Below the pieces are notes generated by a model. It saw only the letters and a list, made by a program, of their open reading frames with translations, did not search any database and had not been told where the DNA came from. From NCBI RefSeq assembly GCF_963675165.1, contig NC_087392.1, forward strand, positions 14,022-78,021: a stretch of 64,000 bases of DNA. Direction: 5' to 3'. Below, piece after piece: positions 43,746 to 61,600 of this stretch. Every line of letters begins with the position of its first letter. Within the stretch, counting starts at the first letter, position 1. A program made the position numbers and the translations under genes. The stretch is from Halichondria panicea. Lineage: Eukaryota.

Positions 43746-46319
43746 TCACCATTGAGATACAGACACACTTATATATTCACCATAGGTGGATGAATTGCGC
43801 TGGTGAATGAGATGGATCCCTCCATTAGAGCAGATGCTATCTTGTCTTGGTCTACGATCATTCTCACTGCTCTGATACTCCTTCTTCATCTGGGAGAACA
43901 GGAAATACACCTTGGGGGCAAACAGACAGCACAGGGTGGTGGTGGCGCTCAGAGCTATCCCTAGGACAAGAGAACTTGTCTGAAAGATTGTACCTAGCTG
44001 CGAGGTGGCAAAATATGTAGGGATAAATGCCAGCCAGATAATGACAATGGTGTACAATGTGAGATTGATGAATTTGGCCTCATTGAAATTCTGAGGAACC
44101 TTGCGAGCTCGAAATGCAAAATATGTACTCAACAACAACAGAAATAGACTGTAACCAAATGATGCTGATATTCCAATATAGGGAGACTCGCCACATTTCA
44201 GCTCTGTACTGAAATCATTGTAGACCAATAGAATGCTTGGCGGTTCCACTACCAACCAGATCACAGCAATGACTACCTGTACAGCAATGAGCAGTAGTGT
44301 TAGTGCCACCTGGCTCTGTGGACTAATGAGGGAGGGGGTGCTAACTGAACCAGGTCTACGGTTGAATATACGATGAATACGATTAGTCTTAATCAACAGT
44401 GCACTATAGCAAAGAGTGAAACAGAAACCAAGCCCAAACCTTCGAATACCACACACAACAGCAGAGGGTCGAATAATGAAAGCAAAGGGAAGCAAATAAC
44501 ACAACAATAACCCAGTCAACAGGAAAGCACTCAACTCGCGACTAGAGCCCTTGACAATCTGATGCTTGTAGAACACAACAAAGATGATAATAACACTCAC
44601 TGTTAGTGCAATCCCAACAATAGCAACAACCATGATGATAATAGACCATGCATGAGACCATGTCAGGAAGGTGAGGGGTATGAGCTCACACTGGGTCATG
44701 TTCGTATTAGGGGCATAACCTTGTTCACATTCTCTACACTTCTCGCCAGTACTCACGTGCCTGTTGCCAAGACAACGCTTACAGATCCAACAACAAGCAG
44801 CTTGATCTGATACCCTCTCTGGATACTGCCCGCCCCCACACTTGACACTACACACTGACTCTGGCATGTCTCCATCAATCCACTCCACATCACTGTGTAG
44901 AGACAGCATTGCATTAGAGGCAGTCCACACACCCACCTGTCTGAACCTATGCTGCCCACTCTCCAACTGAAGGTTCTTAATGATGAAGCTGCCTTGTTCA
45001 TCTCCACTGGCATCAAATGAAATCTCTCGTGCAGAAGCTCCTGGTGAGAATGAAACATTGTGTAAATACGTTTGTAATAGTTCTCCATTCACTGCATTAG
45101 TCCGAGGGTCAGTCATATCACGACATAAACCATGGCCACCGGGACACAAGGCTCTCTGCATGTCAGTCATAGCATGGGCAAAAGCATACACAGCATCAAT
45201 AGCAAAGGGAACTTTACTGTTCTGACGATATTCATTGTTGACTGAGATCCTGTCATTGCCATCACACTCCCTCACACCTGCCACTGGTTGAAATGAGCAG
45301 TTGAACACATTCTCCCAATATTCGCTAAACCACGGATTGTCAGCATTGTTGAGAGGGGTCAGTCCAGTGAAGTAATCATCAAACTGTTGGCTGTGTTTGG
45401 CCTGAGGGAGAACAGCTAACATACCATGCGCCACAGGGTACAAGTGGGAGGGGATCTGGTCCCCCCAAGCATCACTGGCTATCCACGTTATGTTCTTGAG
45501 AGGTCCACTTCCTCTGCTCCTGTCTACAGCCTCCAGCACTTTCACAGCAGTGGCTAATTGTCCAAACAACACAGCCACAGATGCATTATTGACCCAGCTG
45601 CGTGACATGTCCAGCAACACCTCATCCAAGTCTTGACTAGTGGCCACCACTGGGACACTGATTTGAGTGGCTACACATGTCTCTGAACAGTTTCTACCCT
45701 CCAACGCTTTGAGCAATGCCTGAATTCCCACTGTACCATATACATCATCAGAGTGGAGGGCATACACATAGCTCCAGTTGAAGTGGTCAATCAGATCAGC
45801 CATGACTTGCGTCTGAAGAGAGTCAGGAGGTATCGTACGAAAGAAATAATCGAATCTAGTTCTGTCACTCAAAGTTTCTGCGGTGGAGGCATAACTGATT
45901 TGAGGGATCTTGAATAATCTGAGCAAACTAGCCACAGCAATAGAGACACTGCTTGAGGCTGCACCCACAACACCAGATATACCCAACACGCCGCGAGAGC
46001 TCACAAAGTGCAGGCTTTGTTCGAGGGCATAGTTAGACTGTGTGCAAGTGTCTCTAATCTCAAAGCTGAGTGTTATGCCAGGGAGAAGGGCTGTGTTGTT
46101 GTTGACCTTATCCACTGCTAATACCATTGCTTCAAGTCGTTGCAGTCCAAGGTCCAACACGTCACCACATTGGTTGTCCATGTTCTTGTGTACAGGGAAT
46201 AGAGCTCCTAAGATGACAATGTCTCCATGAGTAGGTAATGGTCCATTATAGACAGTGGCCCCAGCTAGGCACACAACACACACTAGTAACAAGGCAATCA
46301 TGATAGCTACTCTCCGCAT
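43746..46319 (-). CDS. class C (mGluR/CaSR-like) GPCR: signal peptide, Venus-flytrap ANF-receptor domain, cysteine-rich domain, 7TM; single exon
   Basis: 857-aa uninterrupted ORF. N-terminal signal MRRVAIMIALLLVCVVCLAGA. The VFT region reads ..GDIVILGALFPVH..SYASTAETLSDRTRFDYFFRTIPPDS... The cysteine-rich region reads CSVKCGGGQYPERVSDQAACCWICKRCLGNRHVSTGEKCRECEQGYAPNTNMTQCELIP. Seven hydrophobic segments follow, and the TM3 ..FGLGFCFTLCYSALLIKTNRIHRIF.. carries the class-C K/R-I-x-R-I-F signature. Confidence 0.85.
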   Translation of the reverse strand: MRRVAIMIALLLVCVVCLAGATVYNGPLPTHGDIVILGALFPVHKNMDNQCGDVLDLGLQRLEAMVLAVDKVNNNTALLPGITLSFEIRDTCTQSNYALEQSLHFVSSRGVLGISGVVGAASSSVSIAVASLLRLFKIPQISYASTAETLSDRTRFDYFFRTIPPDSLQTQVMADLIDHFNWSYVYALHSDDVYGTVGIQALLKALEGRNCSETCVATQISVPVVATSQDLDEVLLDMSRSWVNNASVAVLFGQLATAVKVLEAVDRSRGSGPLKNITWIASDAWGDQIPSHLYPVAHGMLAVLPQAKHSQQFDDYFTGLTPLNNADNPWFSEYWENVFNCSFQPVAGVRECDGNDRISVNNEYRQNSKVPFAIDAVYAFAHAMTDMQRALCPGGHGLCRDMTDPRTNAVNGELLQTYLHNVSFSPGASAREISFDASGDEQGSFIIKNLQLESGQHRFRQVGVWTASNAMLSLHSDVEWIDGDMPESVCSVKCGGGQYPERVSDQAACCWICKRCLGNRHVSTGEKCRECEQGYAPNTNMTQCELIPLTFLTWSHAWSIIIMVVAIVGIALTVSVIIIFVVFYKHQIVKGSSRELSAFLLTGLLLCYLLPFAFIIRPSAVVCGIRRFGLGFCFTLCYSALLIKTNRIHRIFNRRPGSVSTPSLISPQSQVALTLLLIAVQVVIAVIWLVVEPPSILLVYNDFSTELKCGESPYIGISASFGYSLFLLLLSTYFAFRARKVPQNFNEAKFINLTLYTIVIIWLAFIPTYFATSQLGTIFQTSSLVLGIALSATTTLCCLFAPKVYFLFSQMKKEYQSSENDRRPRQDSICSNGGIHLIHQRNSSTYGEYISVSVSQW

Positions 46320-52100: not shown

Positions 52101-53493
52101 CCCACTAACATCACAGCCTTTGCTTTGAGTGACTTGATCTGCATGAAGTGAGCTACAATGGTGGGAGGGGGGAGGAGGGGGGATTGCTTACATGTTTAGG
52201 TAGCAGTGCTGATGATGGTGCAGTGGAGGGGTTGGATCCGAGGCCTAACTGATGAGCATCATTCAAACCACACGTGTACACAGACCCACTGCTCAGGGGG
52301 GGGTCTCAATAATAGCAGCCACTGATTGTAAGGCTCACCTTTTGGTTAGGATGACAGTATGGTTCCTAGCTGCAGCCACACCCACAGCCACACCCTCTAC
52401 AGTCCTCACAACACACGGAGTCTGCAACACAAGAGCCCCTCCATTTTTTTAGGTCAAAATTATAATTTCTATTTTAATACACACACACACAGAGCCTCAC
52501 CACTAGACTGTGCTCTGAGCCCCCCTCCCCACACATACACACACAGAGGCTCACCACTAGACTGTGCTCTGAGCCCCCCCCCCCCACACACACACACAGA
52601 GGCTCACCACTAGACTTTGCTCTGAGCCATGTCCCAGACGTCCACCTAGACCATGACCACATGTCAGCACACGCCCACACTCACTCAGGAACACACTGTG
52701 GAACTTGCAGAGGACCACCTGCAGAGGAAGTGAGGGGGTGTATGGAGTGAGGGGGTGTATGAAGTGAGGGGTGTATGGAGTGAGGGGTGTATGGAGTGAG
52801 GGGGTGCATGGAGTGAGGGGGTGTATGGAGTGAGGGGGTGTATGAGGAGAGCTACCTGAGCAGGTGAGAGGTTGTCTGGTAGCTCCAGTCTCTGAGGTGT
52901 ACTGCCTGAGAGGTCATGGCCTAGTGTAGTGTTGGTATTACTGCCCCAACTGTGGCCACTCACACCACCCACACCTGAGGGAGGGGGTCAATAAGAGGGA
53001 GGGGGGGTCACACTAACTAACGTACTCAGAGAGCTACTGAAGGTCTCCCTGTCCATATTGAGAATGGTGAGTGGTGTAGCGTTGTCATGGTCCCTCTGAC
53101 GAAGGTCTCCTCCAGCCTACAGGGATATAGTACAGAGGTTATACCATCACCCCATACCTTGACCAGTAGTGCTGCTGTCCCTAGCTGGCCATAATAAACA
53201 CTCCTGTGTAGAGCAGTCCATCGTGACTCCAGATCAGAGGTGTGTAGTTGAACCTTGTTATCCAGTAGCCATTGCACTAGTTGCAGATGACCCTTGGAGG
53301 CAGCCACATGGAGAGCAGTGCGACCGAGACTGTCTCTAATGTGCAGGTAGTTGCCACATAAGCAGCTGCAATGTTGGAGCAGCTTCAAGTTCCCCAGATA
53401 AGCCACTCCTAGGACTAGAGAAGCATGCGCCTCATAGGAACAATCTCGTGTGCAGTCCACACATACACTGCTCAGTCTAGAGCGCCTCGACAT
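46947..53493 (-). CDS. IBTK: inhibitor of Bruton tyrosine kinase (IBTK)-like: ankyrin repeats + RCC1 repeats + two BTB domains, multi-exon
   Basis: N-terminal exon 53026-53493: ..GRTALHVAASKGHLQLVQWLLDNKVQLHTSDLESRWTALHRSVYYGQLGTAALLVK (ANK). RCC1-type exons (..HSWGSNTNTTLGHDLSGSTPQRLELP..; ..AVMLVGAGRYHTALATHTEVFTMGKNHGQLGYER..). BTB exons (..IVKAFLRYLYGSHLQL..; ..ALLTLASQFGLEHL..; WLVRVLIVADQLLLFRLKDLCQ; VTLRNVPELLEIADTYSASQLKSSCLQFICVNAAALLEAR). An S/P-rich linker exon 48306-48947 and terminal exons end near 46947. Introns hold a (CA)n run at 49110-49180, a 30-bp x7 repeat at 47240-47455 and copies of the 348-bp family. Confidence 0.75.
47240..47455. repeat. 30-bp tandem repeat x7 (catgaccatccatcaaggccattgtt(a/g)) in an IBTK intron
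   Basis: Direct reading. It produces the MALMDGH.. / DHPSRPLLH.. pseudo-ORFs. Confidence 0.9.
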
Positions 53494-55167: not shown

Positions 55168-56688
55168 CTAAAGTGGTTCTAGATTGATCTTGATACCATT
55201 CTTGCTTCGTAACACAACTTTAGGGGCTGTCTCAACTTTGTGTCCTTGTACTAGCGATAACTTGAATCTGTTTAGAATGGAGGCAATCACAATCCTCTCT
55301 TCATTCAGAGCAAAGTTCTGTCCAATGCAGTTTCGCTGACCACCAGAAAATGGAATGTAGGCATAGGGGTCACGACCCTCGCAGTTGCTGGGATGGAAAC
55401 GAAGAGGGTCATATTCATCAGGATTCTCCCAAGTTTCCGGGTGGCGATGGATCTGTCGTATACCAATGCCAAAGTTCATCCCCTTGGGAATGATATGGCC
55501 GTCCAGTATCATTTCCTCCGTTGCTTTTCTGAATATAAAGAAGACAGGAGGGTAGAGTCTCATGGCCTCCTTGATGGCCCACTGAGTGTACTTGAGCTCT
55601 TTAAGATCATCATAGTCAAGGGTGTCTCGTCCCTGAAGCACACTCCTCACCTCCTCACGTACTTTCTCCTGGGCCTCAGGATGCTTTGCTAGACAGTACA
55701 GGGTCCAGCACATCCCACTGGTCGTCGTGTCATGGCCCTCAAACATGAATGTGTCCACTTCATCTTGAATCTCTTGATCGGTGAGGCCATTGCCATCCTC
55801 GTCTCTAGCTATGAGCAGAACGTCCAGGAAATCCAGGTACTTCCCCTTCTTTCTAGTCCGCAGCTCACTCTCTGAGAAGCCAGTTTTGCCCACTTCCAAC
55901 TCTTCCTTTCTCTTTTGTACAACCATTCTCGAGTGACTGTGCACAAACTGACAAAGTTTGTTGTACTTGCGTCCAGTGGGTGTCAAGTTGAATAGCCAGT
56001 CAATTCTGCCAACCAAAGTAACGAATCTCTCTGTGGTCAGTTCTACTAGCTCTTGAACCGCCTCAATATATGGATGGCTTTGTGTAGTGTCTTGACAATT
56101 GCTGGAGAAACTGAAAGAGCACTGAAGGATGATATCCAGTGAGAGCAAACTAATGCTATTAAAAAGTTCAATTTGTTTATTTTTATCCATCAATGCTGTC
56201 CACTTGTCAAGTAATTCCTTAACACAATTGTTGTACACAGGCACATAAGGCTTGAGGATTTCGTAGTGAAAAGCTGGAGTTAGCAAACGACGATTTCTGG
56301 CCCATTTTGATCCTTTGGATATAAGAAGTCCATCGCCAAGCCAAGGTTTGAACAAACGATACTCGGCAGCGTTCTTAGGTTGCTTGAGCACCTTCCCTGC
56401 AAGACTGCAATGATAAATGTCGATGGACGGTTGGAATGGACCGATCCATGTTCTAACCATTTTCCAGCGCTTTTCTTTCACGGCATATTTCATAACTTTG
56501 TGATATTCCTCTTCAGATTCCAACATCTTTCGTACGTCAAGTAAGTTTCCAAACAGCCAATGTGCTGGAAGTCCTGGGATGTTTCTAACTGCCTTCCAAT
56601 GAACATAGTATCGAAACAGACGACCTGGAACATTGAAGATGAACAATCCGACCAGTAAGAGTGCAGAAATCACAAGCAAAGGCTCCAT
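55168..56688 (-). CDS. cytochrome P450, CYP4-clan, single exon (copy A, 506 aa)
   Basis: N-terminal membrane anchor MEPLLVISALLLVGLFIF; I-helix EGHDTTTSGM; ExxR EAMRLYPPV; PERF-like DPLRFHP; heme-binding FSGGQRNCIGQNFA. The CYP4-type motif EVDTFMFEGHDTT is present. Confidence 0.9.
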   Translation of the reverse strand: MEPLLVISALLLVGLFIFNVPGRLFRYYVHWKAVRNIPGLPAHWLFGNLLDVRKMLESEEEYHKVMKYAVKEKRWKMVRTWIGPFQPSIDIYHCSLAGKVLKQPKNAAEYRLFKPWLGDGLLISKGSKWARNRRLLTPAFHYEILKPYVPVYNNCVKELLDKWTALMDKNKQIELFNSISLLSLDIILQCSFSFSSNCQDTTQSHPYIEAVQELVELTTERFVTLVGRIDWLFNLTPTGRKYNKLCQFVHSHSRMVVQKRKEELEVGKTGFSESELRTRKKGKYLDFLDVLLIARDEDGNGLTDQEIQDEVDTFMFEGHDTTTSGMCWTLYCLAKHPEAQEKVREEVRSVLQGRDTLDYDDLKELKYTQWAIKEAMRLYPPVFFIFRKATEEMILDGHIIPKGMNFGIGIRQIHRHPETWENPDEYDPLRFHPSNCEGRDPYAYIPFSGGQRNCIGQNFALNEERIVIASILNRFKLSLVQGHKVETAPKVVLRSKNGIKINLEPL

Positions 56689-56865
56689 GTTTTAGCTCAG
56701 CTATAATTAATTATTATTTTGCCATTCAGCAGCCCCTCCCCTTTAGGCTTACCTTAGGGGAGGACTACTACTACTGCAATTTATAAGAATAAGAATCAAA
56801 TTTTCAGTGTTCCAACAAAAATATAATATAAACTCTAGAGCTAGAAGAATGGAATACATCACACA

Positions 56866-58401
56866 TTACAATGCAGACTCAATGTTCACTAAAATATCAT
56901 TCTTGCTTCGTAACACAACTTTAGGAACAGTCTCAACTTTGTGTCCTTGTACTAGCGATAACTTGAATCTATTTACAATGGAGGCAGTCACAATCCTCTC
57001 TTCATTCAGAGCAAAGTTCTGTCCAATGCAGTTTCGCTGACCACCAGAGAATGGAATGTAGGCATAGGGGTCACGACCCTCGCAGTTGCTGGGATGGAAA
57101 CGAAGAGGGTCATACTCATCAGGATTATCCCAAGTGTCCGGGTGGCGATGGATCTGTCGTATGGACAGGCCAACAGTCATACCTTTAGGAATCTCGTGGC
57201 CATCCAGAACAAGGTTTCCATCAGATTGGCGGAATATAAAGAAGACAGGAGGGTAGAGTCTCATGGCCTCCTTGATGGCCCACTGAGTGTACTTGAGCTC
57301 TTTAAGATCATCATAGTCGAGGGTGTCTCGTCCCTGAAGCACACTCCTCACCTCCTCACGCACTTTCTCCTGTGCCTCAGGATGCTTTGCTAGACAGTAC
57401 AGGGTCCAGCACATTCCACTGGTCGTCGTGTCATGGCCTTCAAACATGAACGTGTCTACTTCATCTCTAATCTCGAGGTCAGTCAGTCCCTCTCCAGTCT
57501 CATCTTCAGCAGTGAGTAGAATGTCGAGAAAATCTAAATGTCTCTTTTGTCGTGTTTTAGCTAACAGTTCTTCTCGTTTCAACACTTTCTCTCCTGAATC
57601 AAGGCCCAGAAACTCCTTTCTTTCCTTTATAACCCCCTCAGAGTATTGATGAGCTTTGTTGCAGGCATCACGGAATTGTCTCCCCTCAGACGTGAGGTAG
57701 TACAGTATATCAATCCTCTTGAGTGGTGATGTGAATCGTGTTGCAGTCAGTTCAACAAGGTCTTGTACTGTTCTAATGTACGGGTGAGCAGTGGTGGCAG
57801 TTTGACAGTTACTCTGAAAGCTAAACGCACATTGCATTATCACGTCCAGTGAGAGCAGCCCGATTGAATCGAAGAGCTTCACCGACTGACCACCTTCAGC
57901 CGGTGAAACACTCCACTTGTCCAATAGTACCTCTGTACAGTCGTTGTAGATACCCACATAGCCTTTGAGGATATCGTAATGGAAAGCTGGAGTGAGGAGG
58001 CGACGATTCCTGAACCATTTGCTCCCTCCAGAGATGAGAAGTCCATCCCCTAGCCATGGCTTGATGAGACCATACACCTCACTATCCTTGGAGGCCTTGA
58101 GCACAGGACCGACAAGAGAGCAATGCTGAATAGCAACCATCGGAAAGAATGGGCCCAGCCAACTCCTAGTCAACTTGTGCTTGTTCTGAAATATGAAGTT
58201 AGTCCATTTCTTGGTAGTTTCTTCATCCAGATTGATTTGATGTAGGTTTCCCCATAGCCAGTGTGTTGGCCATCCAGGCAGCGCCCTCACTGCATTGCAC
58301 TGTATGTAATAGCCATAGAGCGCTGGTGGGAGCTTTAGAAGGAGCACTGCAATCACGAGAGTGGCTGCAGCTACACACAACAGGGACACAACATACTCCA
58401 T
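56866..58401 (-). CDS. cytochrome P450, CYP4-clan, single exon (copy B, 511 aa), tandem paralogue of copy A
   Basis: Same motif set as copy A. The C-terminal ~190 codons are ~97-98% identical at the DNA level to copy A (e.g. 56891-57150 vs 55201-55460), whereas the N-terminal halves are strongly diverged. Only ~177 bp separate the copy B stop from the copy A start. Confidence 0.9.
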   Translation of the reverse strand: MEYVVSLLCVAAATLVIAVLLLKLPPALYGYYIQCNAVRALPGWPTHWLWGNLHQINLDEETTKKWTNFIFQNKHKLTRSWLGPFFPMVAIQHCSLVGPVLKASKDSEVYGLIKPWLGDGLLISGGSKWFRNRRLLTPAFHYDILKGYVGIYNDCTEVLLDKWSVSPAEGGQSVKLFDSIGLLSLDVIMQCAFSFQSNCQTATTAHPYIRTVQDLVELTATRFTSPLKRIDILYYLTSEGRQFRDACNKAHQYSEGVIKERKEFLGLDSGEKVLKREELLAKTRQKRHLDFLDILLTAEDETGEGLTDLEIRDEVDTFMFEGHDTTTSGMCWTLYCLAKHPEAQEKVREEVRSVLQGRDTLDYDDLKELKYTQWAIKEAMRLYPPVFFIFRQSDGNLVLDGHEIPKGMTVGLSIRQIHRHPDTWDNPDEYDPLRFHPSNCEGRDPYAYIPFSGGQRNCIGQNFALNEERIVTASIVNRFKLSLVQGHKVETVPKVVLRSKNDILVNIESAL

Positions 58402-58603: not shown

Positions 58604-61600
58604 TGTCAAGTTGGTCGTGGTAAAAGTCCATTCATATCAGGCTGTAAGAATTCATCCATGATGCTCTGCACAGTGTCACTGAGAGTGGCCCTCAGCTCTG
58701 CCTCCGGGGTCCTGAGAGGGTAGGGAGGTAGCCATACACTAGTGACAGGGAGAACTTACTTGGTTCTTGGTTCAGTGAATAGCTCAACGTAGTACTTGAC
58801 CTTTGGTTCTGTCCCACTAGTCCTGAGTGTGAACACACAGTTGTTGTCCAGAGTGAAGGTGATGAGTTGAGAGCGAGGGTCCACTGGCAATACCTGGAAA
58901 CACTATATATGATACACACACTTGCATGCAATGACCTTTACCGGAAGGTAGTGAGGAGGCCTTGTGCTGTCATAGCCGACAGTGAGGTCTACCACAGAGG
59001 TCACGTTGTGTTTCCCACACCTCGTGGGGTACTAGGAGAGAGGGGGCAATACACAGAGGCATAGGGGGTAGTGTACCTACCTCCAACTATACACAGAGGC
59101 GTAGGGGGTAGTGTACCTACCTCCAACTATACACAGAGGCGTAGGGGGTAGTGTACCTACCTCCAACTATACACAGAGGCGTAGGGGGTAGTGTACCTAC
59201 CTCCAACTATACACAGAGGCGTAGGGGGTAGTGTACCTACCTCCAACTATACACAGAGGCGTAGGGGGTAGTGTACCTACCTCCAACTATACACAGAGGC
59301 GTAGGGGGTAGTGTACCTACCTCCAACTATACACAGAGGCGTAGGGGGTAGTGTACCTACCTCCAACTATACACAGAGGCGTAGGGGGTAGTGTACCTAC
59401 CTCCTTGTTGCCACGCAGTCTGTCAAAGATCCTCTGTATAGTGACTTGGTCATAGCATATATAGTAGGAGACATGTGTGAGGTAGTAGCCATACCTACAG
59501 ACAGGGCAGTGAGTGGTACTGCACACAGTGATGGAGCTCACCTGTGGTAGAGAATGGCGAGTTGATCATGGAAAGTCTTGTCCTGAGAGTGGAGCCATCC
59601 GCCATACTCTGCCAACACTGCAGCTGCACTGATGCCATCTTTATCCAGTACTGTACTGCCAAACATGTAGCCAATAGCCTCCTCATAAGCAAACAGCACT
59701 GTCTTTCCCTCAGCCTGCAAGCTATGGGTCCTATTGCCCATCCACTTGAACCCTGTCAGTGTCTCCTGTTACAGGGACAAAGGCTGAACACAGTGTACAG
59801 TGAGAGATGCAAGGTCACCTCAAAGTTGAAGCCCTCCTCTTTAGCAAGAGATCGGATGAACTTGGAGGACACTGTGCTGGCCAGCATATACACCTTAGAC
59901 CCTGCAGGAGGTCAGTGCAGGAGGTCAATGCAGGAGGTTAGTTATTAGAACCAAACTGAAAGATTTAGTGCAGCGGCCACTTCTACAAAATCATGACATT
60001 GGATCAACGGTACTAAAGTTATGGCTGTTGGAAAGATGGACTCTTTCAGCTGCCATAACTTAAATTCCGTGGATACAATTGCAACGATTTTTTGATTTTC
60101 TGAAAGCTTAGAAAGAGATCTTTAAAATGGTATCATCAAAATTCTTATTTGAGTGATAAAATTATTTGCCAATTCAGCCATACCATGGATAATAGCCCAT
60201 GGTCCAAGGCCGAAAAACGAGAAATTAGAGCCCCGACAAAATTTTGGATCGAAACACATCATTTGAAAGGTATTTTCCTAAGCTTTCAGAAAATCATAAA
60301 ATTTTTGACATTGGATAAACGGTACTAAAGTTATGGCTGTTGAAAGATGTTCAACTACACCCCTCCGTTTAATCTCAGAATAGTATCAAGAACTGACCAT
60401 CAAAGGAGGAAGTAAGTGAGTCCTTGTAGATGTTGACGGCCCACCATGACAACAAAGCCCCTGTCTCATTCCCACTGAATATCTTCCATTGTCCAGTAGT
60501 GGGATGCCTCTCAGCCAGAGCCAGTCTATCAGCATCAGGGTCAGTGGCGAGGATCACAGAACTCCCATTCTCCTCAGCTGTACGCATAGCCAGGTCCTGT
60601 GTTAGACAGTAGGTGTGTCTGTCGGGTATTGCTATAGCAACGGCTTACAAGGGCACTCTTTCCTTCCTCTGGGTTAGGGAACTGGACAGTGGGGAAGTCA
60701 GGGTCAGGGGTCATCTGTTCCTTGACTGGTATCAGCTCTGGTAGTCCAAATGCTTGGAAGGCCTTGACCACAGCATCCCCGCCCACTCCATGCATGGGTG
60801 TGAAGGTGTACCTCAAACCAGGCTCAGAATTGAACACACGTCTGTAGTGTCATATCACATTTAGTGGTGTGTTGTACCTGACACAATGCCTCTGTATCTA
60901 TAGTGGTGTGTTGTACCTGACACAATGCCTCTGTATGGCCTGGTAGTAGCACTCCTCAACGCCTGCCAGTGGGTCACTCACTAGGTGACTGCTAGTAATG
61001 ACCTCCGTGAACCATGACCTCTCCCAAGGGGTCAACTGGGCCTCAATCTGCGTTGCTATGCCAACATCGTGAGGGGGGATAATCTAAAAGGGTAGCAAGT
61101 CCATTAAAAGCAGCTCTAGGATTGTTAGCACACACCCACACCCCCGCACACACACCCCCGCACACCCACACACACCTGTGCCCCGTTGTCCCAGTAAACC
61201 TTGTAGCCATTATACTCCTTTGGGTTGTGAGAGGCAGTGACTTGAACACCTGCTACACAACCATAGTGGAGTACAGCATACGCCTGGGAGGAGGGGCAAT
61301 AGATCACATGACACAAGGTCAACACTCTCACCACATAGGGGGTGGGAACGTGGTGGGAAAACAGACGAACTTTGAACCCTTTGTTGAGGAATATCGAGGC
61401 AGTGAGTTGTGCAAACCTGGGAATTGATTACCATGACAACAGTTATTCGCGTATAAAAGGTTCTGCTCACCGGAGGCTATTGTATCGTGCATCATAGCCG
61501 ATAGCCACACCCCTTTCCAGTACCTGTGAGGGCGTGAAGCACTGCAGGAGGTAGCTGGCCAGGCCCTGTGTGTGTGTGTGTGTGTGTGAGGTGATGACAT

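What the first reader, a model, noticed from the sequence alone, without database searches (positions are those of the whole stretch)
55168..58401. Tandem intronless CYP4 duplicates: 3' halves homogenised (gene conversion) except a divergent substrate-recognition patch
The two P450 genes are only ~177 bp apart. Their 5' halves are strongly diverged, but their 3' ~570 bp are 97-98% identical (55201-55460 vs 56891-57150; 55540-55770 vs 57238-57470). That pattern indicates recent gene conversion of the 3' part. Within the homogenised tract, one ~70-bp patch (55470-55540 vs 57168-57238) is completely different. It encodes the loop between the ExxR and PERF motifs: ILDGHIIPKGMNFGIGI in copy A versus VLDGHEIPKGMTVGLSI in copy B. 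In P450 structures this loop is substrate-recognition site 5. Preservation of a divergent SRS patch inside a converted tract suggests selection for different substrate specificities. Both genes are intronless, unlike most animal CYP4 genes, which may point to a retroposed ancestor.
Basis: seen in the sequence. Interest (0 to 1): 0.65.

Follow-up and report, generated by a model that had tools for sequence, protein, structure and literature searches.

The report
Mosaic gene conversion in sponge P450s
Two neighbouring intronless cytochrome P450 genes of the sponge Halichondria panicea keep overwriting two stretches of each other's 3' third by gene conversion, while a 69-bp island between the stretches stays gene-specific; the same mosaic recurs in further paralogs and in at least three other sponge assemblies, so it is a clean example of a known evolutionary process rather than a new kind of system.

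Summary
Copy A (55168-56688, -) and copy B (56866-58401, -) are uninterrupted P450 ORFs 177 bp apart.

- **Identity between A and B:**
  - 5' 61% of the CDS: 55% nt
  - Tract 1 (234 nt): 97.0%
  - Island (69 nt): 53.6%
  - Tract 2 (264 nt): 96.2%
  - Last 9 codons: 41%
- **Synonymous differences (pS):** 0.79, 0.15, 0.79 and 0.08 across the first four segments.
- **Gene conversion is strongly supported.** Permutation tests give P<1e-4. In trees from the tracts, genes group by species (87-100% bootstrap). In trees from the 5' part and the island, they group by paralog type.
The same mosaic occurs independently in three other sponge assemblies. It also involves a third paralog type 245 kb away and two more copies on another contig.
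- **The SRS5 claim does not hold for A versus B.** The SRS5 hot spots (5th and 9th residues after ExxR: V382, F386) lie in the homogenised tract. The island covers the end of β1-4, the β2 hairpin and β1-3.
- **A second island exists.** Codons 487-488, at the SRS6 edge, also escape conversion.
- **Selection on the island is plausible but unproven.**
- **Retroposition has no support.** Intronlessness is old and family-wide.

The parts
55168..56688 (-). Copy A: intronless CYP4-clan P450 CDS (506 aa plus stop) = XP_064404150.1
   Evidence: PDB best hit is rabbit CYP4B1 (E=5e-113). AF2 model pLDDT 92.9; Foldseek TM 0.87-0.93 to 5t6q/6c93.
56866..58401 (-). Copy B: intronless CYP4-clan P450 CDS (511 aa plus stop) = XP_064404149.1
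55765..56688 (-). Copy A, aa 1-308: paralog-type-specific part (membrane anchor to helix H; SRS1-3). Within it, aa ~273-308 is homogenised with paralog C1 but not with B.
   Evidence: 55% nt identity to B with pS 0.79. Groups with A orthologs at 100% bootstrap. A/C1 are 99% identical over aa 281-308.
57466..58401 (-). Copy B, aa 1-312: paralog-type-specific part
   Evidence: Groups with B orthologs of four other assemblies at 100% bootstrap.
55531..55764 (-). Conversion tract 1 in A (aa 309-386): I helix with the CYP4 signature EVDTFMFEGHDTT (SRS4), helices J and K, ExxR (E374-R377), and SRS5 including hot spots V382 and F386
   Evidence: 97.0% identical to B; all 7 differences are synonymous. 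Paralog dS 0.16 against ortholog dS 0.34-0.37. Species clades at 97-100% bootstrap. Permutation P<1e-4.
57232..57465 (-). Conversion tract 1 in B (aa 313-390)
   Evidence: As for tract 1 in A.
55462..55530 (-). Unconverted island in A (aa 387-409, RKATEEMILDGHIIPKGMNFGIG): end of β1-4, β2-1/β2-2 hairpin, β1-3
   Evidence: 53.6% nt identity to B with pS 0.79. 93% identical to the A ortholog in GCA_022075345.1. Secondary structure from the AF2 model.
57163..57231 (-). Unconverted island in B (aa 391-413, RQSDGNLVLDGHEIPKGMTVGLS)
   Evidence: Groups with B orthologs (all-B clade 76%, Hp_B+S4_B 90%); species clades get 0%.
55198..55461 (-). Conversion tract 2 in A (aa 410-497): K' helix, meander/PERF-like DPLRF, Cys pocket PFSGGQRNCIG, L helix, β3-3 and β4 hairpin
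   Evidence: 96.2% identical to B, dS 0.08. Permutation P<=2e-4. Species clades at 99-100% bootstrap.
56899..57162 (-). Conversion tract 2 in B (aa 414-501)
   Evidence: As for tract 2 in A.
55225..55230 (-). Micro-island inside tract 2 in A: codons 487-488 (ACA GCC, Thr-Ala) in strand β4-1 at the N-terminal edge of SRS6
   Evidence: B has ACT GTT (Thr-Val). All five B orthologs keep Val. The flanking 13 and 9 codons are homogenised in both H. panicea and GCA_022075345.1. β4-1 is 487-489 and β4-2 is 493-495. SRS6 spans β4-1 to β4-2 (PMC6263019).
56926..56931 (-). Micro-island in B: codons 491-492 (ACT GTT)
55168..55197 (-). Copy A C-terminal tail (aa 498-506 plus stop): not shared with B, but 96% identical to paralogs C1-C3
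   Evidence: The A/C1 similarity stops at the last codon.
56866..56898 (-). Copy B C-terminal tail (aa 502-511 plus stop): B-type-specific 'DILVNIE'
   Evidence: 41% identity to A. Conserved in the B orthologs of four assemblies.
56689..56865 (.). 177-bp spacer between the B stop codon and the A start codon. It contains a hairpin (56735-56763) and a G-rich box (GGGAGGGGCTG, 56730-56740) that is conserved upstream of copy A in three assemblies.
53026..53493 (-). Ankyrin-repeat exon downstream of A: a synteny anchor
   Evidence: Pfam Ank. The same neighbour is present in L007.
60574..60837 (-). Phosphoglucomutase exon upstream of B: a synteny anchor
   Evidence: Pfam PGM_PMM_II. L001 has a PGM exon, then B, then A.

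Best explanation
A and B belong to an intronless CYP4-clan P450 family in halichondriid-like sponges. H. panicea has at least five copies: A and B in tandem, C1 245 kb away on the same contig, and C2/C3 on another contig.

**What happens (shown).** The family undergoes recurrent, ongoing interlocus gene conversion. The conversion is confined to two blocks of the conserved catalytic core:
- Tract 1: the I helix through the K helix, ExxR and SRS5.
- Tract 2: the K' helix, meander, Cys pocket, L helix and β4.

Each species therefore carries its own uniform version of these blocks in all paralogs. Three parts keep the identity of each paralog type and track orthology across species:
- the N-terminal ~60% of the protein;
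- a 69-bp island (end of β1-4, the β2 hairpin and β1-3);
- codons 487-488 at the SRS6 edge, together with the C-terminal tail.

The two tracts were converted in separate events. Their paralog dS values differ within each species.

**Why the islands persist (inferred).**
- Converted alleles that overwrite the islands are probably removed by purifying selection on paralog-specific residues.
- These residues may shape the substrate channel. Alternatively, they may have to match the type-specific N-terminal strands of the same β-sheet.
- The ~46% nucleotide divergence of the 69-bp island also hinders heteroduplex formation, so the boundary reinforces itself.
For: **Conversion**
- Paralog pS between A and B is 0.15 and 0.08 in the tracts, against 0.79 in both the 5' part and the island.
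- Ortholog dS between H. panicea and GCA_022075345.1 is 0.25-0.37 in every segment. That exceeds paralog dS in the tracts of both species (0.16/0.08 and 0.02/0.11). Conversion therefore post-dates their split, in both lineages.
- A and B of GCA_022075345.1 share derived amino-acid changes in the tracts: D->H in TLHYDD, R->K and I->V.
- Permutation tests give P<1e-4 in three species pairs.
- NJ bootstrap: the tracts give species clades at 87-100%. The 5' part gives type clades at 100% for types A and B (the C clade gets only 17%). The island gives type clades at 54-100% and species clades at 0%.
- Boundaries are at the same codons in four assemblies: A/B at ~309, A/C at ~273 (Hp and S2), and the island at 384/387-409/417.
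- Synteny (PGM exon, B, A, Ank exon) is conserved.

**Separate events for the two tracts**
- dS for tract 1 against tract 2 is 0.16/0.08 (Hp), 0.02/0.11 (S4), 0.16/0.34 (S2) and 0.15/0.77 (S3).

**Selection on the islands**
- Ortholog dN/dS in the island is 0.17-0.31, below 1.
- B-type motifs (S-D/E-G-x-L and G-L/I-S-I) are kept in five assemblies.
- A 2-codon island (487-488, Val in all five B orthologs) survives with homogenised sequence on both sides, in two species. Two or three mismatches cannot act as a homology barrier.
- Heterology is not an absolute barrier. In ERZ25069764 the diverged C-terminal tail and ~240 nt of 3' flank were overwritten between B and its neighbour.
Against: - No test here separates selection from a purely mechanical barrier for the 69-bp island.
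- dN/dS between paralog types cannot be estimated because dS is saturated.
- The island is the least conserved block of the C-terminal third across 99 homologs. Its ortholog dN/dS is higher than elsewhere, as expected for a weakly constrained surface element.
- With only about 5 lineages, the absence of island-spanning conversions is weak statistical evidence.
- GC3 is raised in tract 1 (0.51-0.74 against 0.40-0.57 in the 5' part) but not in tract 2. A GC-biased conversion signature is therefore only partial.
- Between distant species, pS in the tracts (0.53-0.58) is lower than in the 5' part (0.74-0.82). Some synonymous constraint or composition effect in the tracts cannot be excluded.
- No expression or functional data are available.
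Confidence: 0.7

Rival explanations
1. Homology barrier only. Conversion is real, but the 69-bp island persists simply because ~46% divergence blocks heteroduplex extension. Tracts can only form inside blocks that purifying selection on the protein keeps similar. No selection against homogenising the island is needed.
For: - The tracts coincide with the most conserved parts of the P450 fold (I helix, K helix/ExxR, Cys pocket, L helix).
- The island is the most variable block family-wide and has the highest ortholog dN/dS.
- Conversion never extends into the unalignable UTRs.
- The two tracts have different ages, so they were converted separately.
Against: - The 2-codon island at 487-488 is far too short to be a barrier, yet it persists in two species between homogenised flanks.
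- A diverged C-terminal tail was overwritten in ERZ25069764, so heterology can be crossed.
- The island is under purifying selection, with type-specific motifs kept in five assemblies.
- 234 nt and 264 nt of near-identity on either side should allow gap repair across 69 nt. This rests on established knowledge of double-strand-break repair and was not tested here.
Confidence: 0.25
2. The island is SRS5, and it is kept different by diversifying selection for different substrate specificities of A and B.
For: - The island lies between ExxR and the PERF-like motif and directly follows SRS5.
- Family-wide, the variable block reaches positions 7-9 after ExxR. The C-type differs from A/B at the 9th position (S vs F).
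- β1-3 may line the outer access channel. This is my own knowledge from P450 BM3 and was not tested here.
Against: - Residues 1-10 after ExxR, including both SRS5 hot spots (V382, F386), are identical in A and B. Positions 1-9 lie in the homogenised tract.
- SRS4 is also homogenised.
- There is no evidence of positive selection. Ortholog dN/dS is 0.17-0.31, and the island is no more diverged than the 5' part (54% against 55% nt).
Confidence: 0.15
3. RNA-mediated conversion. Both the intronless state and the 3' bias of the homogenised tracts reflect recombination of genomic copies with partial, 3'-biased cDNAs of paralogs.
For: - All family members are intronless.
- The homogenised blocks lie in the 3' 40% of the CDS.
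Against: - The 3' UTRs and, for A/B, the last 9 codons are not homogenised. A cDNA primed at the poly(A) tail should carry them.
- No reverse-transcriptase gene or poly(A) remnant was seen next to the genes.
- Ordinary DNA-level conversion explains everything.
Confidence: 0.05
4. There is no conversion. The identity of the tracts reflects extreme purifying or synonymous constraint, or it is an assembly artefact.
For: - The tracts encode the most conserved P450 motifs.
- pS between distant species is somewhat lower in the tracts than in the 5' part.
Against: - The same tracts differ between species by 6% (close pair) to 17-26% (distant pairs), while paralogs within a species differ by 0.4-5% in tract 1 for most within-species pairs (up to 11% in S3), and more in tract 2 for S2 and S3.
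- Species-specific synonymous and nonsynonymous states are shared by paralogs.
- The pattern is reproduced in four independent assemblies and in two H. panicea assemblies.
Confidence: 0.02

Closest known systems
Primate CYP2D6/CYP2D7/CYP2D8 concerted evolution (Yasukochi & Satta 2015, PMC4419802)
   Same: Tandem P450 paralogs are homogenised by gene conversion. Trees from non-SRS sequence cluster the paralogs together, while substrate-recognition residues keep orthology. The authors interpret this as functional constraint limiting homogenisation.
   Different: - Here the genes are intronless and clan 4, and they come from a sponge.
- Conversion is limited to two short coding blocks with codon-sharp boundaries that are conserved across at least four assemblies.
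- Several paralog types are involved, including unlinked ones.
- SRS4 and SRS5 are inside the homogenised block. The escaping parts are the N-terminal 60%, the β1-4/β2/β1-3 island and the SRS6 edge.
CYP4BL/CYP4BK cluster of the gastropod Cyphoma gibbosum (PMC3022543)
   Same: [quoted passage not shown] Most of the variation lies in or near the SRSs.
   Different: That study used cDNA only, with no genomic loci, no cross-species test and no mapped tracts. Here the tracts, boundaries and independent recurrences are demonstrated at the DNA level.
CYP21A2/CYP21A1P non-allelic gene conversion (PMC3843699)
   Same: Non-allelic conversion between tandem P450 duplicates (abstract only).
   Different: That case is a gene/pseudogene pair in which conversion is mainly deleterious. 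Here all copies are intact ORFs under purifying selection.
Vertebrate CYP4 omega-hydroxylases (rabbit CYP4B1, PDB 5T6Q/6C93; CYP4F)
   Same: - Best sequence match (E=5e-113) and best fold match (TM 0.87-0.93).
- Exact CYP4 I-helix signature EVDTFMFEGHDTT, including the Glu that esterifies the heme in CYP4B1.
- ExxR, a PERF-like motif and the Cys pocket are present (Glu310 role cited in PMC6167488).
   Different: - Only 37-38% identity to CYP4B1.
- Intronless.
- Substrates unknown.
- Sponge-specific expansion.

Membership tests
Cytochrome P450 superfamily | Full-length Pfam PF00067 match, ExxR, a PERF-type meander motif, and the FxxGxRxCxG Cys pocket | tested here: met
   PF00067 E=1e-110 (A) and 4e-104 (B), covering the whole profile. 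EAMR (374-377), DPLRF and PFSGGQRNCIG were read in the translation.
CYP4 family / clan 4 | The closest solved and named relatives are CYP4 enzymes | tested here: met
   PDB best hit is CYP4B1 at E=5e-113; the next is CYP97 at 2e-47. Foldseek top 3 are all CYP4B1. RefSeq names are 'CYP4F6-like' and 'ultra-long-chain fatty acid omega-hydroxylase-like'.
CYP4 family / clan 4 | CYP4 I-helix signature EVDTFMFEGHDTT with the heme-esterifying Glu (the signature is recalled from my own knowledge; the Glu role is cited in PMC6167488) | tested here: met
   DEVDTFMFEGHDTTTSG is present in A and B and in 15 of the 17 genes aligned (exceptions S3_g3 and S5_C2's neighbour-free copy excluded only S3_g3 by motif). 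The S3_g3 copy has Gly at the Glu position.
CYP4 family / clan 4 | At least 40% amino-acid identity to a named CYP4 member (P450 nomenclature rule, my own knowledge) | tested here: inconclusive
   37-38% identity to rabbit CYP4B1. 44% identity over 83% of the query to an automatically named Branchiostoma 'CYP4F2-like' protein. No curated CYP4F or CYP4V sequence was available to test.
Interlocus gene conversion / concerted evolution | Within the tract, paralogs in one species are more alike than orthologs between species; outside the tract the reverse holds | tested here: met
   Tracts give species clades at 87-100% bootstrap. The 5' part gives type A and type B clades at 100%.
Interlocus gene conversion / concerted evolution | Synonymous sites are homogenised too, which excludes protein-level constraint as the cause | tested here: met
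   pS of 0.15 and 0.08 in the tracts against 0.79 in the 5' part and the island. Paralog dS is below ortholog dS.
Interlocus gene conversion / concerted evolution | Statistically significant shared fragments (GENECONV-type test) | tested here: met
   My own permutation of polymorphic sites gave P<1e-4 for Hp A/B, S4 A/B, S2 A/B, Hp A/C1 and Hp B/C1. GENECONV and RDP themselves were not run.
Interlocus gene conversion / concerted evolution | GC-biased signature in the converted sequence | tested here: inconclusive
   GC3 is raised in tract 1 in all 17 genes but not in tract 2.
Interlocus gene conversion / concerted evolution | Non-reciprocal transfer observed directly (donor and recipient alleles in a population or pedigree) | not testable with these tools
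   This needs population or pedigree sequence data.
Substrate recognition site 5 (as the identity of the island) | The segment from ExxR to β1-4 that contains the 5th and 9th residues after ExxR | tested here: not met
   The definition comes from PMC6263019 and PMC3224734. V382 and F386 are in tract 1 and are identical in A and B. The island is aa 387-409, with its first amino-acid difference at residue 388, the 11th after ExxR.
Retrogene (processed copy) | Intronless CDS | tested here: met
   The ORFs equal the RefSeq proteins.
Retrogene (processed copy) | A poly(A) remnant or target-site duplications, a dispersed location, and an intron-containing parent gene | tested here: not met
   - No poly(A) tract was seen in the 3' flanks.
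- The copies lie in tandem arrays with conserved synteny in four assemblies.
- No intron-containing parent was found among the 17 genes.
- An ancient retroposition before the family expanded cannot be excluded.

The most novel reading that the evidence does not exclude
The family may be run as a modular system. One shared catalytic core (I helix to SRS5, and Cys pocket to L helix) would be actively kept uniform across all paralogs of a species by conversion. This could be adaptive, for example to keep every paralog matched to a single redox partner or to spread beneficial core mutations. Private 'specificity cassettes' would be shielded from conversion by selection over a time span in which synonymous sites have saturated. 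These cassettes are the N-terminal β/SRS1-3 part, the 23-residue β1-4/β2/β1-3 island, and a single SRS6-edge codon. Under this reading the 69-bp island is a previously unrecognised specificity or channel determinant of CYP4-type enzymes lying outside the six classical SRSs.
Probability: 0.2. Interest if true: 0.6.

Novelty: new member of a known kind. Interest (0 to 1): 0.42.

Why it matters
- It is an unusually clean natural experiment on how gene conversion and selection partition a protein. The boundaries are codon-sharp and were reproduced independently in several sponge lineages and paralog types.
- It marks which parts of a CYP4-type enzyme can be swapped freely and which cannot.
- It points to the β1-4/β2/β1-3 segment and residue 488 as candidate paralog-specific determinants for mutagenesis.
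- It is a warning for phylogenetics and annotation of sponge P450s. Whole-gene trees will mix species and paralog signals, and 90%-identity clustering merges different paralogs.
- It does not reveal a new kind of biological system.

Tried and rejected
- **SRS map for CYP4.** I looked for a published map in the CYP4B1 and CYP4F literature. The CYP4B1 structure paper is not in the library, and the reviews give no SRS5 coordinates. I therefore used the general definition (ExxR to β1-4; 5th and 9th positions) from PMC6263019 and PMC3224734, plus the DSSP assignment of the AF2 model.
- **Distance to the heme or cavity.** I could not measure it for island residues because structure prediction returns no coordinates.
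- **P0121 (RefSeq C1).** It could not be looked up. The ENA copy P0127 worked.
- **Hairpin search.** The first pattern search had a wrong gap size and found nothing. It was redone.
- **GC-biased conversion.** Tested through GC3 and only partly seen.
- **Literature.** A search for sponge P450 gene conversion or intronless CYP4 found nothing specific.
- **Rejected: unequal crossing-over or a recent partial duplication.** The pattern alternates diverged, identical, diverged, identical and diverged inside the CDS. It also involves copies 245 kb away and on another contig.
- **Rejected: assembly collapse.** The pattern recurs in four independent assemblies.
- **Not attempted: covariation between the island and N-terminal strands.** Shared phylogeny of all unconverted segments would confound it.
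- **Not resolved: species identity.** The species behind ERZ25070530, ERZ25069764, GCA_022075345.1, GCA_022076545.1 and ERZ23492373/GCA_022599445.1 remain unidentified.

Full report
**1. What is at the coordinates**

The window holds two uninterrupted ORFs on the minus strand: A (55168-56688, 506 aa) and B (56866-58401, 511 aa). They are 177 bp apart.
- Both match Pfam p450 over the whole profile (E=1e-110 and 4e-104).
- tblastn finds no third copy in the window.
- Copy A is identical to RefSeq XP_064404150.1 ('ultra-long-chain fatty acid omega-hydroxylase-like'). Copy B is identical to XP_064404149.1 ('cytochrome P450 4F6-like'). Both are from the demosponge Halichondria panicea. The source organism is therefore known, and the coding regions are intronless.
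- The best solved relative is rabbit CYP4B1 (E=5e-113; the next family, CYP97, scores 2e-47).
- An AlphaFold2 model of A (pLDDT 92.9) superposes on CYP4B1 with TM 0.87-0.93 at 37-38% identity.
- Both proteins carry the CYP4 I-helix signature EVDTFMFEGHDTT, ExxR (E374-R377 in A), DPLRF and the Cys pocket PFSGGQRNCIG.

**2. Check of the observation**

A codon alignment gives these values for A against B:

| Segment | nt identity | Notes |
|---|---|---|
| aa 1-308 | 55.2% | |
| aa 309-386 (tract 1) | 97.0% (227/234) | all 7 differences synonymous |
| aa 387-409 (island) | 53.6% (37/69) | 13 of 23 residues differ |
| aa 410-497 (tract 2) | 96.2% (254/264) | |
| aa 498-506 | 40.7% | |

- blastn finds no similarity in the 3' flanks.
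- Nei-Gojobori pS is 0.79, 0.15, 0.79 and 0.08 for the 5' part, tract 1, island and tract 2. The island carries old divergence at synonymous sites too. It is unconverted sequence, not a recently accelerated patch.
- A Sawyer-type permutation of polymorphic sites gives P<1e-4 for the two main shared fragments.
The corrections are small: the coordinate register is off by 3-11 bp, identity is 96-97% rather than 97-98%, and the island is 54% identical rather than 'completely different'.

**3. Related loci change the picture**

Homologs and their contigs gave 17 intronless genes from six assemblies.
- **H. panicea has at least five copies.** A and B are in tandem. C1 lies 245 kb away on the same ENA contig, in the same orientation. 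C2 and C3 lie on another contig.
- **GCA_022075345.1 ('S4')** is a close relative, with ortholog dS of about 0.3. It has B, then A, then an ankyrin exon, as in the window.
- **ERZ25070530 ('S2')** has a PGM exon, then B, then A. It also has a C1 ortholog beside an ankyrin/TRP-channel gene, as in H. panicea.
- **ERZ25069764 ('S3')** has a B ortholog followed by at least four A-like copies.

**4. Segment-wise comparison**

- **5' part (aa 1-280):** genes group by paralog type.
  - Hp_A/S4_A 92%, Hp_A/S2_A 68%.
  - Hp_B/S4_B 92%; the other B orthologs 64-71%.
  - Different types 51-58%.
  - Type A and type B clades get 100% bootstrap.
- **Tract 1:** genes group by species.
  - Hp A/B/C1 97%; S4 A/B 99.6%; four S2 paralogs 94-96%; S3 89-97%.
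  - Between species, 74-94%.
  - Species clades get 97-100% bootstrap.
- **Tract 2:** the same pattern, with species clades at 99-100% for Hp+S4, S2 and S3.
- **Island:** genes group by type again.
  - Hp_A/S4_A 93%, Hp_B/S4_B 88%, between types 45-59%.
  - Type clades get 54-100% bootstrap, and species clades get 0%.
- **Timing:** paralog dS in the tracts (Hp 0.16/0.08; S4 0.02/0.11) is below the Hp-S4 ortholog dS (0.25-0.37 in every segment). Conversion therefore continued after these two lineages split, in both of them.
- **Shared derived changes:** S4_A and S4_B share derived amino-acid changes in the tracts (TLHYDD, NEEKIV, ASVLN).
- **Boundaries recur at the same codons.**
  - A/B tract 1 starts at about codon 309 in all four assemblies.
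  - A/C tracts start at about codon 273 in both Hp and S2.
  - The island spans 384/387 to 409/417 in every pair.
- **Separate events:** tract 1 and tract 2 have different dS within each species, so they were converted separately.
- This is multi-paralog concerted evolution with a stable mosaic. It is not a single recent event between two neighbours.

**5. Where the island lies in the protein**

- The AF2 model gives K helix 366-378, β1-4 384-388, β2-1 393-395, β2-2 398-400, β1-3 405-409 and K' 410-414.
- SRS5 is defined as the stretch from ExxR to β1-4. Its selectivity-determining residues are at the 5th and, in some P450s, the 9th position after ExxR (PMC6263019; PMC3224734).
- In A these are V382 and F386. 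Both are in tract 1 and both are identical in B. SRS4 (the I helix) is also in tract 1.
- The first amino-acid difference of the island is at the 11th position after ExxR (K388Q). The island continues through the β2 hairpin and β1-3.
- For the A/B pair the island is therefore next to SRS5, not in it.
- Family-wide, the variable block does start at positions 7-9 after ExxR (consensus of 99 homologs; S2 and S3 pairs). The C type differs from A/B at position 9 (S vs F).

**6. A second, smaller island**

- Inside tract 2, codons 487-488 differ: ACA GCC (Thr-Ala) in A against ACT GTT (Thr-Val) in B. S4 shows the same situation.
- The 13 codons before and the 9 codons after are homogenised.
- All five B orthologs keep Val at this position.
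- The residue lies in β4-1 (487-489), at the N-terminal edge of SRS6. SRS6 spans β4-1 to β4-2.
- Two or three mismatches cannot stop heteroduplex formation. This island is therefore the best evidence here that selection removes homogenised variants at a recognition-site residue.

**7. Why the 69-bp island persists**

*Shown*
- The island is under purifying selection among orthologs (dN/dS 0.17-0.31). This is weaker than in the 5' part (0.06-0.14) and the tracts (0.01-0.09).
- It is no more diverged between types than the 5' part.
- It is the most variable block of the C-terminal third family-wide.

*Inferred*
- Selection against overwriting 13 residues at once is plausible. One possible reason is that β1-3 and the β2 hairpin may shape the outer substrate channel. 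Another is that these strands belong to the same β-sheet as the type-specific N-terminal strands β1-1/β1-2 (aa 77-91) and must match them. This rests on P450 topology from my own knowledge.
- The divergence itself also hinders conversion.

*What the data cannot settle*
- The data cannot separate selection from a pure homology barrier for this island.
- Heterology can be crossed: in S3 the diverged C-terminal tail plus about 240 nt of 3' flank were overwritten.
- The 487-488 island argues for selection.
- With about five lineages, the absence of island-spanning events is weak evidence.

**8. Intronlessness and retroposition**

- All 17 genes are single ORFs. They lie in conserved synteny and tandem arrays.
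- More than 100 further full-length homologs in sponge-derived assemblies are called as single ORFs. That these are intronless is my inference from the ORF-style gene calls.
- No poly(A) remnant is visible.
- Another long single-exon gene, a class C GPCR at 43746-46319, lies in the same window.
- The intronless state is old and family-wide, and the copies arose by DNA-level duplication. An ancient retroposition before the expansion is neither supported nor excluded.

**9. Comparison with what is known**

- The closest precedent is the primate CYP2D cluster. There, non-SRS sequence is homogenised by conversion while SRS residues keep orthology (PMC4419802).
- Concerted evolution was also suspected in the gastropod CYP4BL cluster (PMC3022543).
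- The process is therefore known.
- The new points are the host (a sponge), the intronless family, the codon-sharp boundaries conserved across lineages and paralog types, and the nature of the escaping elements. Those elements are not SRS4 or SRS5. They are the β1-4/β2/β1-3 segment and one codon at the SRS6 edge.

**10. Verdict**

- The feature is real, and gene conversion is firmly established.
- The SRS5 label is wrong for this pair.
- Selection is plausible but unproven for the 69-bp island, and better supported for codon 488.
- Retroposition is unsupported.
- This is a new member of a known kind, of moderate interest.

Noticed in passing
window 56689-56865 (hairpin 56735-56763; G-box 56730-56740, minus strand): The spacer between the B stop codon and the A start codon is only 177 bp (113 bp and 248 bp in two other assemblies). 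It contains a perfect 8-bp-stem hairpin, CCTCCCCT...AGGGGAGG. It also contains a G-rich box, GGG(A/C)GGGGCT, about 45-60 nt upstream of the A start codon, and this box is the only well-conserved block of the spacer in three assemblies. It may be a core promoter element for A. The terminator of B and the promoter of A must share this tiny interval.
   Followed up: partly
window 43746-46319 (-): An 857-aa single-exon ORF encodes a class C (mGluR-like) GPCR, with ANF_receptor, NCD3G and 7tm_3 domains. It is another long intronless gene in the same window, so intronless genes are not peculiar to the P450 family in this genome.
   Followed up: partly
window 55393-55692 (+) and 57094-57393 (+): Two 99-aa antisense ORFs lie opposite tract 1, the island and tract 2 of A and B. 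They are nearly identical only because they sit in the converted sequence. They have no independent support and are most likely mechanical by-products.
   Followed up: no
L002 15326-16843 (-) (protein P0012, ERZ25069764): One A-like copy in the expanded cluster reads EVETFMYGGHDTT. The I-helix Glu that esterifies the heme in CYP4 enzymes is replaced by Gly. This copy may have a non-covalently bound heme and different regioselectivity.
   Followed up: no
L002 10001-13775 (ERZ25069764): In this assembly the B ortholog and its neighbour are 100% identical over the last 14 codons, and their similarity continues about 240 nt into the 3' flank. In H. panicea, by contrast, the B tail stays type-specific. 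This shows that conversion can overwrite diverged sequence.
   Followed up: partly
tract 1 of all 17 genes (window 55531-55764 and 57232-57465): GC3 is higher in tract 1 (0.51-0.74) than in the 5' part (0.40-0.57) and, in most genes, the island (0.22-0.57). It is most extreme in ERZ25070530 (0.69-0.74 against 0.22-0.30 in the island). Tract 2 shows no such rise. This may be GC-biased gene conversion acting on the most frequently converted block.
   Followed up: partly
window 53026-53493 (-), 60574-60837 (-); L001, L007: The gene order PGM exon, P450-B, P450-A, ankyrin-repeat exon is conserved between H. panicea and two other sponge assemblies. The C1 paralog sits next to an ankyrin/TRP-type ion-channel gene in both H. 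panicea and ERZ25070530.
   Followed up: yes
protein cluster of P0011: The 90%-identity protein clusters merge different H. panicea paralogs (C1, C2, C3) with sequences from other assemblies, because the converted tracts inflate identity. Orthology assignment from such clusters would be misleading for this family.
   Followed up: no
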